Assembly (NCBI RefSeq): GCF_022846255.1
Contig: NZ_AP025682.1
DNA: 64,000 nt
Reading direction: 5' to 3' (one strand)
Source of the DNA: Escherichia coli
GTDB lineage: Bacteria > Pseudomonadota > Gammaproteobacteria > Enterobacterales > Enterobacteriaceae
The stretch's first letter is position 1, and each line of letters opens with the position of its first letter. Positions 45,301 to 52,578 of this stretch are shown one piece after another. The position numbers are program-made.

Positions 45301-48300
45301 CGTCGTTTGCATCTGCAGGGTATGACGGTTCCGGATTATACGGTGAAGGTGAGAAAGTGGTTTTGTGTGATGTGTGACGAAAATTATGAGGGGGAAAAGT
45401 GCTGCCCGAGTTGTGGTACCGGGGTATACAGCAGGGAGGGGGGGCAGGAGGGCAACTGGAAGGATAGGAACTGAGCGGTTCAGTCGCGGAAATCAGTTGC
45501 AGAGCTGTAATGATATCTCCGGGAGTGCTGCGTTGGTAGGGGCATCCCGGGATAGAGAAATTTTAGCACTTTGCCCTGAATGATTGTAGACGTCCCGAGT
45601 ACTCGTACCGGTCTGAGTTATTACAGTTAGATATTCACTTTTTCTCCCGCATACTTCACATCTGTCAACGACGGATGAAAAGTGGTTCTTCCGCAACCTG
45701 GGTGGAAGAAAATGGATGAAACTTTCTGGCGAACAAGGATCTAAGCTGTTTTAAGTTATGGGCAACGCAATGCACTCTCTTAAGACACTTCTACAGTTAC
45801 CTTGCGGATGGCGATGCAGTCGACAAATTATTAGCTCTGACGGTATAACCCTCCATCTCCACGGAAAACGCAAAACAGCACAATGTCCTGAATGCTTTAA
45901 GCGTAGCGACTCTGTTCATAGTTGTCGTCGGCGCCGGATACAGCATCTACCCTGCTCAGGGCAGACGCTATGGCTTGTATTTTCCGTCCGCCACTGGTAC
46001 TGCCGTAACCCGGCTTGTTCACGTAAAATTTTTGCCGAGTCGCTTGCTCCCTTCGCCAGTTCACACCAGCAGTCTTCACAGGCGTTACAAAATTAACAAT
46101 GTCAACTGGGATTAATAGCTGGAGGTGAGGCTGGAAAACGGGCTGCAACGGCAGTGGGTCTCCGTTGCAGTGCTGATACTCTTCTTCGCAGGCTTATCAA
46201 TACCCCGGAGACGAAACAGTCAGGCGCGCCTCATGTCGGTATTGATGAGTGGGCGTGGCATCGGGGCCACTGCTGCGGTATGTTAATAGTCAATCCTGAT
46301 ACTCACCGTCCCCTCGTCCTGCTTCCCGGCCGTGATCAGCGTACGCTGGCGACCTGGTTCAGAAAATATCCGGAAATACAGGTTGTCTCGCGTGATCGCA
46401 GTGGAGTCTATGCGACAGCAGCACGTGAAGGTGCACCTCAGGCCAGACAGGTGGCCGATCGATGGCACCTGCTAAAAAATATTGGTGATGAGCCTGAACG
46501 AATGATGTACAGACATATGCCTCTGATACGTCTTGTTGTCAGAGAGTTATCACTGAAGAAATCACCTGAGCCAGAAATATCTGTGCCTGTAGCATCGCTC
46601 CGTCGTCTGGAACGCCTTAAACAGCACATCCGCAAAAAACGGCATCAGCGTTGGACAGAGGTTATGGCCCTGCATAACAAGGGATGTAGTTTCAGGGAAA
46701 TATCCCGTATTACAGGCCTGTCGCGAGTGACAGTCAGTCGCTGGGTGGGTTCAGGAACATTCCCTGAAATGTCAACCAGGCCTCCAAAGCGAGGGCTTCT
46801 GGACCCATGGAGGGAGTGGTTAAAAGAGCAACGAGAATGTGGTAATTATAACTCCGGCCGGATATGGCGGGAAATGGTGGCCAGGGGGGTTACAGGCAGT
46901 GAAACCATCGTCAGGGATGCTGTTGCCAAATGGCATAAAGGCTGGATCCCACCGGTTACTACTGCCGCAAGACTTCCTTCAGTGTCCCGGGTAAGCCGCT
47001 GGTTGATGCCCTGGAGAATAATCAGGGGTGAAGAAAATTATGCTTTCCGATTTATTAGTCTGATGTGTGAAAAAGAACCGGAGTTGAAAATAGCGCAGCA
47101 ACTGGTACTCGAGTTCTACCGTATTCTGAAAACCTAAAATAAATCACAGCTAAGCAGCTGGTTCACTCGGGTCCACGAAAGCGGCTCAGCAGAACTTCGG
47201 TGCGTAGCTGCGGGGATGGAAGCTGATGCTGCGGCTATATGTGAGGCAATCAGCAGTCGCTGGAGTACTGGTGTTGTCGAAGGTCATGTAAATCGCCTGA
47301 AGGTGCTGATACGCCAGATGTATGGTCGAGCCGGACTTGAACTACTTAGGCGGAGGGTAATGAGTCCACTGGCATGAAAATCTTCACCTAGGTTGAGGAA
47401 GAGCCACTTTTGCACTGTTCGTGACAGTATGGCCTTTATGTACTCACTTTGTTACCGGTAGCTGGATCATCACTACCGTGCCGCAAATGGTGGTGAACAG
47501 CATCAATTGTGGAATGAATGTTGCCGAAGCGACCAATGCGCCTCGTTTCCACCATCAGTGGTTGCCGGACGAGCTGCGTGTTGAAAAGGGTTTAGTCCGG
47601 ATACGCTCAAGCTGCTGGAAGCAAAAGGTCAGAAAGTGGCGCTGAATGAGGCGATGGGCAGCACGCAAAGCATTATGGTTGGGTCGGATGGTGAGTTGTA
47701 CGGCGCATCCGACTCGCGCTTGGTGGATGATTTAACGGCGGGGTATTAATTGACATCCCCCGGCGCAATGTGCCGGGGGATAATGGTTTTATGCGGTCAA
47801 TAATCGTCCGGGATTATCGATACAGAGTTTTTTGAGGATCGTTTTATCGACGCCGCGCTCCGCCAGATAGGCCAGAAAAACATCTGGAACAAATCCCCAG
47901 CCATTACCGCCATTTTTAGCCCACATTTGTTTAAGGAAGACATCGTGGCTGAGAACAAGCTGATCGGCGTATCCCAACTCAATGAGATGAGCGACGGCAT
48001 CGGCAGTCTCCTGCACCCCTGGCGCTATTCCCTCTTTCGGGAAGGTAATGTCTAGGCCAATCATGTCGAATTCCAGCCAGACACCTTTATCAAGCATTTT
48101 CCGCTGATACGCCACGTCTTTTCCTGACGGATCCGAGTGTGCGAGAGAGACTTTATTTGGCGAGACGCCCATTTCACCTAACACAATGTCGAGTACTTCA
48201 TCACCGCGACGAAGCCAGCCCGGCATGTGAATATTCATCGCCACATGAGGATTGTTAATCTGTGCCAGCGAGGCAGCCCGCAAGCTGTTATGCTCGGCTT

Positions 48301-51300: not shown

Positions 51301-52578
51301 TTTCGTTTGATAAATTATACTTTTATAAATCTTAGACGAATTCATAAAGTTGATCGCATAATCACTAAAGTGATCTGTACCTACTTTTGTTATGAAATAA
51401 ACATCAGTATCGGCAAAGCTTGCTGCCAGCGCTTGGTTACAACCTTTTCCCCCCGGTGAAAATATAAAATTACTTGCCAGAAGCGATTCTCCGATAGTGG
51501 GAAGCCTCGGCAAATAACTGATGATATCAACATTAAACGAACCAATAACGCATACTTGACTTTTCATAGTTGAGTGGCCTTTTTTTATTCCCTGGGCTGT
51601 ATCATAATTTTCAAGCGCATAAGCGATTTCATTTTTCGCAATAGTATCAAGCGAGTCTAGGACGATAAAAGCACCGCCATGACATCGAGTCAGATAGCCA
51701 AGTCTGGCAAGTTCATTAAGATCTGATCGAATAGTTTCTTTCGTTACATTGAGGCTATTGGACAGATCGGATACTTTTACAGAACCGAATTTACTGAGTC
51801 GTTTCAATATTTCATGATGGCGTTCAAATTTCATGCTTCACCTCACTTCAGTTACGTTAATATCTGTCGATGTATATTGATGTGATAATCACCATAAAGT
51901 GGCGGGGAAAAGCAAAAAAAATCAAAAATAGCCGGAGAAAAGGTAAGCGTTAATGGAGAATCATATTGATGCTTATTTATTGGTGAGAACTACGTTCCAT
52001 GGCAGGAGTTCATCAATACGGTTGGAAGGTTATTCCGGCAGTACGCTCAGGATATGGCGCAGATACTCTTCCGGATCAATGTCGTTCAGAAGGCAAGTGC
52101 CGATAAGCCCATACAACAGTGCACTGCGCTCGCCGTCGAAGAACATAAAGTTTTTATTTCCGAGACAGATGGCACAAAGGGCTTTTTCCGCGGCATTATG
52201 TCTGCCTCCGCCTGACCGTCAACACTGTAATAACAGAGTGCGCCCCACTGATTCAGTACACAGCTGAACCATTCTCCCAGTCTGGATTTTTGGACAGCGT
52301 GGCATTTTTCTCCACCATCCACGCATGCAGTGAGTCCAGTAACAGTTTGCTCTTCCTCTGCCTGACCACAAGATGTTCTGGTTCTGGCATACTGAATTTG
52401 GCCACCTGAGCATAGGTAATATGCTCACCTTAGAACAACACAGATGCTCCAATGAAAAAAGGAAATTTCAGCGCAGAGTTTAAACGCGAATCCACTCAAC
52501 TAGTTGTTAACCAGAACTTTACGGTGGCAGGTACCATCCAAAGCTATGGATGTCGGTCTTTCCACAATGACAAGATAA

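What the first reader, a model, noticed from the sequence alone, without database searches (positions are those of the whole stretch)
47789..51834. Accessory four-gene catabolic-looking cluster
Four co-oriented genes encode a DeoR-HTH/PfkB sugar-kinase fusion, a GATase1/ThuA-like protein, a DMT-type membrane protein and a phosphotriesterase-family (Php-like) hydrolase. The combination suggests uptake and processing of a sugar-like or lactone substrate and does not match a pathway I recognise. It is bounded by IS remnants on both sides.
Basis: partly seen in the sequence, partly recalled or inferred. Interest (0 to 1): 0.45.

Follow-up and report, generated by a model that had tools for sequence, protein, structure and literature searches.

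The report
E. coli copy of rikA operon
The four genes are real and intact, but they are the E. coli copy of an operon already described in Salmonella (rikA to STM3550), whose kinase phosphorylates ribose and whose true nutrient is still unknown.

Summary
Four tightly packed minus-strand genes encode a DeoR-HTH/PfkB kinase, a PF07090 GATase1-like protein, a double YdcZ-type DMT transporter and a PTE-family metal hydrolase. IS remnants lie on both sides.

The cluster is not new. It is the ortholog (81-96% amino-acid identity, same gene order) of Salmonella STM3547-STM3550. STM3547 was named RikA in 2026 and shown to be a ribose kinase. STM3548 and the Proteus ortholog of the hydrolase (Pmi1525) have crystal structures. 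The physiological substrate remains unknown. About 35% of complete E. coli genomes carry the cluster.

New here:
- A ggt fragment beside the hydrolase gene shows the segment was lifted from a native ggt-adjacent locus.
- The HTH domain is as conserved as the kinase domain, and Met90 is absent in Proteus, Providencia and the SPI-2 paralog. This argues against a general Met90 start.
- A T-rich box lies at a fixed distance upstream in 8 other genera.
- In 80 genomes PF07090 travels with a PfkB kinase, a transporter and an amide or ester hydrolase; PTE and M20 types almost never co-occur.

Best reading: salvage of a ribose-containing conjugate. Interest is low to moderate.

The parts
50620..51834 (-). 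rikA ortholog: DeoR-type HTH (residues 5-56), variable linker (58-89), PfkB ribokinase-like domain (92-382)
   Evidence: Pfam. TIGR02152 ribokinase scores 285 bits against a cut-off of 299.65. 81% amino-acid identity to Salmonella diarizonae RikA. Met90 and catalytic Asp343 are present. The RbsK ribose ligands N14, D16, G42, K43, N46, E143 and D255 align to N101, D103, G129, K130, N133, E231 and D343 (alignment). RefSeq names a copy 'rikA'.
49848..50606 (-). PF07090 'GATase1_like' protein, ortholog of STM3548 (PDB 2GK3); function unknown
48826..49791 (-). DMT-superfamily membrane transporter with two YdcZ repeats, ortholog of STM3549
   Evidence: Pfam. 96% amino-acid identity to the Salmonella protein although synonymous sites are saturated.
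47789..48823 (-). PTE-family binuclear-metal hydrolase, ortholog of STM3550 and of Proteus mirabilis Pmi1525 (PDB 3RHG/4QSF)
   Evidence: Pfam. PDB search E = 3e-174 to Pmi1525, ungapped over 344 residues. The six metal ligands of E. coli Php align to H23, H25, E166, H199, H229 and D294.
51835..51930 (-). Conserved promoter/operator region: T-rich double box TTTTTGATTTTTTTTGCTTTT (51908-51928) and palindrome GTGATTATCAC (51882-51892); RBS GAGG at 51841-51846
   Evidence: 89% identical to the Salmonella upstream region over 92 bp, more than the coding sequence at 76%. The T-rich box sits at a fixed distance (-83 to -98 from the ATG) in E. coli and in 20 orthologous loci from 8 other genera. It is absent from the 4 paralog loci and occurs once in the 64-kb window.
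47755..47781 (.). GC-rich hairpin (12 pairs) between the convergent hydrolase gene and the ggt fragment; likely operon terminator
   Evidence: Terminator scan.
47457..47749 (+). 3' fragment of a gamma-glutamyltransferase gene, carried along from the native locus
   Evidence: RefSeq pseudogene annotation. 92.5% identical to native E. coli ggt and 82% to Salmonella and Citrobacter ggt. In those genera a complete ggt lies convergent to the PTE gene.
45758..47377 (+). ISL3-family transposase pseudogene (left boundary)
   Evidence: RefSeq annotation of an identical sequence.
52030..53142 (.). IS66-family transposase fragment (52030-52390, minus) and a second transposase fragment (52452-53142, plus) (right boundary)
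   Evidence: RefSeq annotation. Homology to the Salmonella chromosome ends about 94 bp upstream of the rikA start codon.

Best explanation
This is the E. coli copy of the enterobacterial rikA-STM3548-STM3549-STM3550 operon. It was moved by IS elements from its native place beside ggt into the island near the cob genes and tRNA-Asn. I read it as a self-regulated operon for the uptake and salvage of a small ribose-containing conjugate: ribose, or a ribofuranosyl unit, joined to a non-sugar part through a hydrolysable amide, carbamoyl or ester bond.

Proposed steps:
1. The YdcZ-type DMT protein imports the compound.
2. The PTE-type metal hydrolase and the PF07090 protein remove or open the non-sugar part.
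3. The PfkB domain of RikA phosphorylates the ribose 5-OH, giving ribose 5-phosphate for the pentose phosphate pathway.
4. The DeoR-type HTH at the N-terminus of RikA binds the conserved elements upstream of its own gene, so that the kinase domain doubles as the sugar sensor.

Shown: the gene content; orthology and synteny; ribose kinase activity of the Salmonella ortholog (published); esterase activity of the Proteus ortholog of the hydrolase (published, promiscuous substrates); purifying selection on all four genes and on the HTH; the conserved upstream elements.

Inferred: the direction of transport, the order of steps, the chemical class of the substrate, any catalytic role for PF07090, and autoregulation.
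For: Orthology: same gene order and 81/83/96/85% amino-acid identity to Salmonella. RefSeq names one copy rikA.

Kinase: chromosomal rikA alone supports growth of Salmonella on ribose. Purified RikA has Km 2.0 mM for ribose, works 40-100 times more slowly on deoxyribose, xylose and xylulose, and loses activity with D343A (PMC13432705). The E. coli protein keeps D343 and the RbsK ribose ligands.

Context in 80 genomes from Enterobacterales, Succinivibrionaceae and Bacillales. The same-strand block around PF07090 holds a PfkB kinase in 64 (69 within 9 kb), a transporter in 73 and a hydrolase in 72. A Brevibacillus representative of the Bacillales kinases passes the ribokinase equivalog cut-off (333 against 299.65 bits). 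The Bacillales transporters are ABC systems with an ATPase, permease(s) and a periplasmic-binding-protein-fold protein, next to a LacI-type regulator, laid out like a ribose operon.

The accompanying hydrolases are mostly C-N hydrolases: M20 ArgE/DapE deacylases, a hydantoinase/carbamoylase-family amidase, a proline-iminopeptidase-family hydrolase, a choloylglycine-hydrolase-like protein and a ureidoglycolate-lyase-like cupin. PTE (30 loci) and M20 (43 loci) co-occur in only 4, which suggests they do the same job. A PTE-family enzyme that hydrolyses N-acetyl amides is known (PTER).

Regulation: the HTH is as conserved as the kinase domain in every ortholog and in the paralog. The upstream region is more conserved than the coding sequence. 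It carries a box found in 8 other genera.
Against: No experiment links the three downstream genes to ribose or to each other. The RikA authors note that kcat/Km for ribose is about 50-fold below that of RbsK and suggest ribose may be an off-target substrate. In their conditions only a roughly 35-kDa protein starting at Met90, without the HTH, was recovered.

PF07090 has no demonstrated activity and lacks a Cys or Ser at the canonical amidotransferase elbow. Pfam names the YdcZ family a 'putative exporter'. The T-rich box lies where a UP element could lie, so it need not be an operator. The context counts are not phylogenetically independent. The Bacillales kinases are only 31-37% identical to RikA, so they may not share its substrate.
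Confidence: 0.45

Rival explanations
1. frl/fra-type logic: the imported compound is a glycated amino acid, for example a ribose-derived Amadori product. The kinase phosphorylates the intact conjugate, PF07090 acts as the deglycase that splits it, and the PTE hydrolase trims an amide beforehand, as FraE does for fructose-asparagine.
For: The SPI-2 paralog pairs the same kinase and PF07090 with an APC amino-acid permease and a proline-iminopeptidase-family hydrolase. M20 deacylases dominate the Bacillales loci. The layout of kinase, hydrolase and transporter parallels the frl and fra loci (my own knowledge of those loci).
Against: RikA keeps 8 of the 10 RbsK ribose-binding residues and uses free ribose with an RbsK-like Km. 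That fits a closed ribofuranose pocket better than an open-chain ketosamine. No SIS-type deglycase is present. PF07090 has no known chemistry.
Confidence: 0.15
2. A plain second ribose system: the DMT protein imports free ribose, RikA phosphorylates it, and the other two proteins are accessory (for example anomer or ring-form conversion) or unrelated.
For: Chromosomal rikA alone supports growth on ribose. The Paenibacillus-type loci look like a ribose operon (regulator, kinase, ABC transporter) with three extra genes and no rbsD-sized gene.
Against: It does not explain why PF07090 is far better conserved than the kinase (59-66% against 31-37% identity between E. coli and Bacillales). It also does not explain why 72 of 80 loci carry a dedicated hydrolase. 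RikA is about 50-fold less efficient than RbsK.
Confidence: 0.12
3. Lactone route: a pentonolactone is phosphorylated at O5 by the kinase, and the PTE-family enzyme opens the phospho-lactone, as the Lmo2620-type lactonases do.
For: Some PTE-family enzymes are phospho-furanose lactonases, and NCBIfam has a model for them. A 5-OH furanose kinase sits next to a PTE-family enzyme.
Against: The hydrolase scores 42 bits against a cut-off of 630 on that model. No phospho-sugar lactonase structure appears among the 60 best PDB matches. There is no dehydrogenase or other enzyme to use a phospho-aldonate. In other phyla M20 deacylases, not lactonases, stand in for PTE.
Confidence: 0.08
4. In E. coli the cluster is hitch-hiking cargo of a decaying island and is not used.
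For: It is flanked by dead IS elements. Some strains carry an internal stop in rikA, an IS2 insertion (H1) or a truncated PTE gene. About 620 more genomes keep the ggt-PTE junction than keep the whole cluster (2528 against 1908).
Against: All four ORFs here are full length. The promoter region is retained and is 89% identical to that of Salmonella. 1908 complete genomes keep at least 80% of the cluster, mostly at 99% identity or more.
Confidence: 0.07

Closest known systems
Salmonella enterica rikA (STM3547)-STM3548-STM3549-STM3550 locus (McCormick, Jabbar and Escalante-Semerena, Mol Microbiol 2026; PMC13432705)
   Same: Same four genes in the same order and orientation, at 81/83/96/85% amino-acid identity. 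Same HTH-PfkB fusion with Met90 and Asp343. Same upstream T-rich box and palindrome. The paper already lists Escherichia among the genera that carry the cluster.
   Different: In Salmonella and Citrobacter the cluster sits in the core chromosome between a yhhY-like acetyltransferase gene and ggt. Here it is a roughly 4.5-kb piece with only 293 bp of ggt, lodged between IS remnants in the island near the cob genes and tRNA-Asn. It is present in only about 35% of complete E. coli genomes.
Pmi1525 of Proteus mirabilis (PDB 3RHG, 4QSF; Xiang et al., Biochemistry 2015) and Rsp3690 of Rhodobacter sphaeroides (PDB 3K2G)
   Same: Pmi1525 is the ortholog of the hydrolase here: an ungapped 344-residue alignment (E = 3e-174), and Proteus carries the same four-gene cluster. 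Both proteins are reported as metal-dependent esterases of the PTE family.
   Different: Only artificial ester and methylphosphonate-ester substrates are known for them (the substrate details are from my memory of the papers, which the library does not hold). The natural substrate is unknown, so these enzymes do not explain the operon.
SPI-2 paralog cluster next to ttrBCA (STM1382-STM1379; STM1381 = PDB 3SOZ)
   Same: An HTH-PfkB fusion (408 aa, 47% identical) followed directly by a PF07090 protein (65% identical), then a hydrolase and a transporter.
   Different: The hydrolase belongs to the proline-iminopeptidase family (alpha/beta fold) and the transporter is an APC amino-acid permease. The T-rich upstream box is absent.
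Ribose operon rbsDACBK-R and ribokinase RbsK
   Same: The kinase domain is ribokinase-like, with the ribose ligands conserved and ribose as the best tested substrate of the ortholog. The Bacillales PF07090 loci have a ribose-operon-like layout of regulator, kinase and ABC transporter.
   Different: The regulator is fused to the kinase instead of being a separate LacI-type RbsR. The transporter is DMT, not ABC. Two extra enzymes are present. kcat/Km for ribose is about 50-fold lower than that of RbsK. The protein falls just below the ribokinase equivalog cut-off.
Fructoselysine (frl) and fructose-asparagine (fra) utilisation loci
   Same: The same logic of transporter, PfkB-family kinase and a C-N-cleaving enzyme for a sugar-amino-acid conjugate (my own knowledge of those loci).
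   Different: No homologous deglycase (an SIS-domain FrlB or FraB) is present, and the sugar specificity of the kinase differs. This is an analogy only.

Membership tests
rikA-STM3550 operon (orthology) | Four genes in the order HTH-PfkB kinase, PF07090, DMT_YdcZ, PTE, co-oriented and tightly spaced | tested here: met
   The same order is seen in Salmonella, Citrobacter, Budvicia, Providencia, Proteus and Klebsiella.
rikA-STM3550 operon (orthology) | High sequence identity of each protein to the Salmonella protein, with a shared flank | tested here: met
   81/83/96/85% amino-acid identity. A ggt fragment and 92 bp of upstream sequence are shared with the Salmonella locus.
RikA ribose kinase | Catalytic Asp343 and ribose-binding residues of the RbsK type | tested here: met
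   D343 is present. N101, D103, G129, K130, N133 and E231 align with the RbsK ligands.
RikA ribose kinase | ATP-dependent phosphorylation of D-ribose | not testable with these tools
   Shown only for the Salmonella protein.
Ribokinase equivalog TIGR02152 | Whole-protein score above the curated cut-off of 299.65 bits | tested here: not met
   285.4 bits. The Brevibacillus kinase beside PF07090 scores 333 bits.
DeoR-family transcription regulators | N-terminal DeoR HTH plus a C-terminal DeoRC effector domain | tested here: not met
   The HTH_DeoR domain is present (E = 5e-15), but a PfkB kinase domain takes the place of the effector domain. DNA binding was not tested.
PTE family / amidohydrolase superfamily | Binuclear-metal ligands: HxH, a bridging Glu (Php type), two His and an Asp | tested here: met
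   H23, H25, E166, H199, H229 and D294 align with Php H12, H14, E125, H158, H186 and D243. The Php ligand numbers come from my own knowledge of PDB 1BF6.
Phospho-furanose lactonase (NF045706), organophosphate hydrolase OPH (NF041153), Php equivalog (NF007373) | Score above the curated cut-off (630, 500 and 486 bits) | tested here: not met
   42, 83 and 108 bits.
Class I glutamine amidotransferases | Nucleophilic Cys at the strand-helix elbow, with a His/Glu triad | tested here: not met
   The elbow after strand 117-121 reads G-G-Y (G122, G123 and Y124 are invariant). The only invariant Cys is C224, in the motif SDCxPHW. The elbow position was judged from the predicted secondary structure, not from a superposition.
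ThuA family (PF06283) | Match to the ThuA profile | tested here: not met
DMT superfamily, YdcZ family | Two YdcZ repeats | tested here: met
   Residues 10-154 and 169-303. Substrate and direction of transport are not testable here.

The most novel reading that the evidence does not exclude
The pair of a ribokinase-type kinase and a PF07090 protein, found with interchangeable amide hydrolases and transporters in Enterobacterales, gut Succinivibrionaceae and soil Bacillales, marks an undescribed catabolic pathway for a ribose-amide or ribose-carbamoyl conjugate. Candidates are ring-opened or modified nucleoside debris, or ribose-glycated amino acids. In this reading PF07090 is a new enzyme class that cleaves the ribosyl-nitrogen linkage, and RikA is a bifunctional kinase and repressor.
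Probability: 0.3. Interest if true: 0.6.

Novelty: already known. Interest (0 to 1): 0.3.

Why it matters
The operon is a documented 'known unknown'. It lies in the core genome of Salmonella, Citrobacter and Proteus, has a paralog inside SPI-2, and is in about a third of complete E. coli genomes, including Nissle 1917. Two of its proteins have had crystal structures since 2006-2011 without a function. Finding the substrate would assign a function to Pfam family PF07090. It would also give a natural substrate to the Pmi1525 branch of the PTE family, and could reveal a nutrient that gut Enterobacterales compete for. For this scan, the main message is that the cluster is not a new discovery. The comparative results here (the interchangeable hydrolases, the conserved HTH, the upstream box) narrow the experiments worth doing.

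Tried and rejected
- The two Raushel-laboratory papers on Pmi1525 and Rsp3690 could not be read, by DOI or by PMC id. What I say about their substrates rests on one citing sentence and on my memory.
- Literature searches for PF07090/DUF1355, for STM3548, STM3549, STM3550, STM1381 and PMI1522-1524, for BtpA/SgcQ with ribokinase, and for the CFT073 cobU island found nothing on function beyond the RikA paper.
- I looked for domain fusions of PF07090 among 1.84 billion representative proteins. The only two long hits join a truncated MFS or CoA-transferase domain to a PF07090 domain that lacks its first 16-32 profile positions. I take these as gene-calling or assembly artefacts.
- The lactonase membership was tested and not met.
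- The 96% identity of the DMT protein to Salmonella could have meant a recent recombination patch. I rejected that because its synonymous sites are as saturated as its neighbours' (pS 0.73).
- Promoter-like hexamers in the region are no more frequent than in shuffled sequence (10 against 9.8). I therefore make no promoter call, including for the hit in the 56-bp gap before the transporter gene.
- dN/dS could be estimated only for the short HTH and linker segments of some pairs, because synonymous sites are saturated. I report the proportions of differences instead.
- The AlphaFold model of the PF07090 protein (mean pLDDT 81) is poor exactly at the invariant loop 19-31, so I attempted no active-site model.
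Full report
**What is there.** Window 47789-51834 holds four ORFs, all on the minus strand. They are separated by 13, 56 and 2 bp.
- 51834-50620, 404 aa: HTH_DeoR (residues 5-56) followed by a PfkB kinase domain (92-382).
- 50606-49848, 252 aa: a single full-length match to PF07090 'GATase1_like', E = 2e-112.
- 49791-48826, 321 aa: two DMT_YdcZ repeats.
- 48823-47789, 344 aa: PTE family PF02126.

**Where the window comes from.** The window is E. coli. Its right-hand 25 kb is 100% identical to several complete chromosomes. RefSeq annotation of one of them shows an O1-type O-antigen region, gnd, ugd and the his operon. These are followed by a CP4-44-like island.

In that island the cluster is flanked on the left by an ISL3 transposase pseudogene (window 45758-47377) and a gamma-glutamyltransferase fragment (47457-47749). 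On the right it is flanked by an IS66-family fragment (52030-52390) and another transposase fragment (52452-53142). In other strains the same island ends at the cob genes and tRNA-Asn.

At least 80% of the cluster is present in 1908 of 5426 complete E. coli genomes, Nissle 1917 among them. The ggt-hydrolase junction is present in 2528 genomes. Some strains carry decayed copies: a stop codon in the kinase gene, an IS2 insertion (H1) or a truncated hydrolase gene.

**It is a known locus.** One RefSeq genome annotates the kinase gene as 'rikA, ribokinase RikA'. The name comes from McCormick, Jabbar and Escalante-Semerena, Mol Microbiol 2026 (PMC13432705).
- In Salmonella Typhimurium, any one of rbsK, deoK or STM3547 (rikA) on the chromosome suffices for growth on ribose.
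- Purified RikA has Km 2.0 mM for ribose and 50 µM for ATP. Its kcat/Km is about 50-fold below that of RbsK.
- Deoxyribose, xylose and xylulose are 40-100 times poorer substrates. L-arabinose is not used.
- D343A abolishes activity.

The paper describes the downstream genes STM3548 (glutamine amidotransferase-like), STM3549 (DMT transporter) and STM3550 (phosphotriesterase). It reports the four-gene cluster in Citrobacter, Escherichia, Budvicia and Proteus. It states that the pathway's substrate is unknown and that ribose may be an off-target substrate.

My comparisons confirm orthology. Against Salmonella diarizonae the four proteins are 81, 83, 96 and 85% identical, and the order is the same in a Salmonella chromosome. 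The E. coli kinase keeps Met90 and Asp343. It also keeps the RbsK ribose ligands: N101, D103, G129, K130, N133, E231 and D343, read from the alignment.

Structures exist for two of the proteins. STM3548 is PDB 2GK3 (E = 1e-145). The Proteus mirabilis ortholog of the hydrolase, Pmi1525, is PDB 3RHG/4QSF (E = 3e-174, ungapped). Pmi1525 and its relative Rsp3690 are cited as metal-dependent esterases of the PTE family. I could not open the original papers.

**Origin of the E. coli copy.** In Salmonella and Citrobacter the cluster lies in the core chromosome, between an acetyltransferase gene and a complete, convergent ggt. Homology between the window and those chromosomes runs from inside ggt (about 47456) to 94 bp upstream of the rikA start codon (about 51928), and stops there. 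The ggt fragment is 92.5% identical to E. coli's own ggt but only 82% identical to Salmonella and Citrobacter ggt.

The simplest reading (inference) has three parts. First, the cluster once lay beside ggt in an Escherichia-like chromosome. Second, a 4.5-kb piece was captured between IS elements. Third, that piece now travels with the island.

None of the 80 best genome-contig loci, whose top matches are 81-83% identical, is an Escherichia genome. A near-identical E. coli-type copy would have ranked first, so the species-representative Escherichia genomes appear to lack the cluster (inference).

**Selection.** Against Salmonella, Citrobacter, Budvicia and Proteus, synonymous sites are near saturation (pS 0.66-0.82). 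Non-synonymous differences against Salmonella are 0.03-0.11 per site. All four genes are under purifying selection. The transporter is the most constrained within Enterobacterales.

**The HTH question.** The RikA paper recovered only a roughly 35-kDa protein that begins at Met90, and it suggests the annotated N-terminus may not be made. Comparative data argue that the HTH is made somewhere.
- In every ortholog, and in the paralog, identity over residues 1-57 equals that of the kinase domain. Examples: 84 against 82% (Salmonella), 61 against 66% (Proteus), 47 against 49% (SPI-2 paralog).
- The linker 58-89 is free to vary, from 72% down to 3% identity.
- Met90 is missing in Proteus, Providencia and the SPI-2 paralog.
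- Met1 has a GAGG ribosome-binding site 8 nt upstream. Met90 has none that is obvious.

**Upstream elements.** The 92 bp upstream of the start codon are 89% identical to Salmonella, compared with 76% for the coding sequence. They hold a double T-rich box, TTTTTGATTTTTTTTGCTTTT (window 51908-51928). The box sits at a fixed distance, -83 to -98 from the ATG, in E. coli and in 20 orthologous loci from 8 other genera. It is absent from the four paralog loci. It occurs only once in the 64-kb window.

The same region holds a palindrome, GTGATTATCAC (51882-51892), with looser counterparts in Proteus and the SPI-2 paralog. Either element could be the operator of the RikA HTH. The T-rich box could equally be a UP element. 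Neither possibility was tested.

**Context of PF07090 elsewhere.** The 252-aa protein is unusually well conserved: 59-66% identical between E. coli and Bacillales, with about 80 invariant positions, many of them polar. The kinases next to it in Bacillales are only 31-37% identical to RikA.

The family is small. It has 184 confirmed matches in a collection that holds one genome per species for 100,044 species. Among 1.84 billion representative proteins it has 182 clusters at E ≤ 1e-30.

I fetched 80 loci, called ORFs within 9 kb, clustered them and labelled the clusters with Pfam or NCBIfam. Five layouts recur.
- Enterobacterales and Succinivibrionaceae: kinase, PF07090, DMT, PTE (the order varies and the kinase is sometimes absent in Succinivibrionaceae).
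- SPI-2 and some Citrobacter: HTH-kinase, PF07090, proline-iminopeptidase-family hydrolase, APC permease.
- Bacillaceae and Brevibacillus: LacI, ribokinase, PF07090, M20 deacylase, ABC transporter (binding protein, ATPase, permease), BtpA/SgcQ, a second PfkB kinase, a second M20.
- A variant of that layout in which PTE replaces an M20.
- Paenibacillus and Cohnella: LacI, ribokinase, ABC transporter, ureidoglycolate-lyase-like cupin, M20, PF07090.

Sporosarcina adds a carbamoylase-family amidase. One Sporosarcina genome has a choloylglycine-hydrolase-like gene and a NupC nucleoside transporter.

In the same-strand block, 64 of 80 loci have a PfkB kinase, 73 a transporter, 72 a hydrolase and 60 all three. 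PTE occurs in 30 loci and M20 in 43, but both occur together in only 4. A Brevibacillus kinase that represents the Bacillales kinases passes the curated ribokinase cut-off (333 against 299.65 bits). The E. coli protein falls just short at 285 bits.

**What this suggests.** The constant core is a ribokinase-type kinase plus PF07090. The transporter and the hydrolase are swapped freely, and the hydrolases are mostly enzymes that cut amide or carbamoyl C-N bonds.

The PTE family is not limited to esters and lactones. Its animal member PTER is an N-acetyltaurine and N-acetyl-β-alanine hydrolase (PMC11374699 and PMC13311154). A 'phosphotriesterase-related protein' entry, probably PTER, is the third-best structural relative of the E. 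coli protein (9EFA, E = 1e-36).

The E. coli hydrolase keeps all six metal ligands of the Php type. It fails the curated models for phospho-furanose lactonase, organophosphate hydrolase and Php itself. PF07090 lacks the amidotransferase nucleophile: the elbow reads Gly-Gly-Tyr. 'Glutamine amidotransferase' is therefore a description of the fold and not of a function.

I therefore favour uptake and salvage of a small ribose-containing conjugate with a hydrolysable amide, carbamoyl or ester bond, ending in ribose 5-phosphate, with RikA acting as both kinase and regulator. My confidence is 0.45 for the class of substrate and about 0.97 for the orthology. The chemical identity of the substrate cannot be derived from sequence.

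**Rivals.** The rivals are:
- an frl/fra-like route in which the intact conjugate is phosphorylated and PF07090 splits it (0.15);
- a plain second ribose system (0.12);
- unused cargo (0.07).

**Verdict.** The cluster is already known as the rikA-STM3550 locus and was already reported in Escherichia, so its novelty as a finding is low. Its function is still open. The comparative results here give concrete experiments. Interest: 0.3.

Noticed in passing
window 47457-47749 (+): A 293-bp 3' fragment of a second ggt gene lies between the left IS and the cluster. It is 92.5% identical to native E. coli ggt and 82% to Salmonella ggt. It marks the cluster's former chromosomal home; 2528 complete E. 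coli genomes keep this junction.
   Followed up: yes
window 51882-51928 (-): A conserved T-rich double box and an 11-bp palindrome lie upstream of rikA. The box is at a fixed distance from the start codon in E. coli and 8 other genera, and it occurs once in the window. It may be an operator or a UP element.
   Followed up: partly
L005 6763-11055 (Salmonella, next to ttrBCA in SPI-2): A paralogous module: HTH-PfkB kinase (408 aa) and PF07090 protein (STM1381, PDB 3SOZ), followed by a proline-iminopeptidase-family hydrolase and an APC permease in place of DMT and PTE.
   Followed up: partly
window 50620-51834 (-), codons 1-90: Met90, proposed in the 2026 paper as the real start of RikA, is not conserved in Proteus, Providencia or the SPI-2 paralog. 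The HTH upstream of it is as conserved as the kinase domain.
   Followed up: yes
window 48826-49791 (-): The DMT transporter is 96% identical to its Salmonella ortholog, while its three neighbours are 81-85% identical and synonymous sites are equally saturated. The constraint on this membrane protein is unusually strong.
   Followed up: partly
window 53378-58316: A second accessory cluster lies just beyond the right-hand IS remnants: an aspartate ammonia-lyase paralog, a DcuA-like C4-dicarboxylate transporter, an Asp/Glu-racemase-family protein and a divergent LysR-type regulator (annotated HypT).
   Followed up: no
window 59670-64000: An extra copy of a galactonate-type cluster (MFS transporter, dgoD, dgoA, dgoK, start of dgoR) follows a dead IS200/IS605 transposase gene.
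   Followed up: no
window 30887-37589 (-): Inside the CP4-44-like island lies a run of a patatin-like phospholipase, an RdcB-family protein, a 798-aa dynamin-family protein, a frameshifted GTPase and a 387-aa hypothetical protein. It could be a defence-type module.
   Followed up: no
L006, L008 and the Bacillales loci among L033-L091: BtpA/SgcQ-family TIM-barrel proteins and a second, non-ribokinase PfkB kinase recur beside PF07090 in Bacillales (15 loci). BtpA/SgcQ has no known function in sugar clusters either.
   Followed up: no
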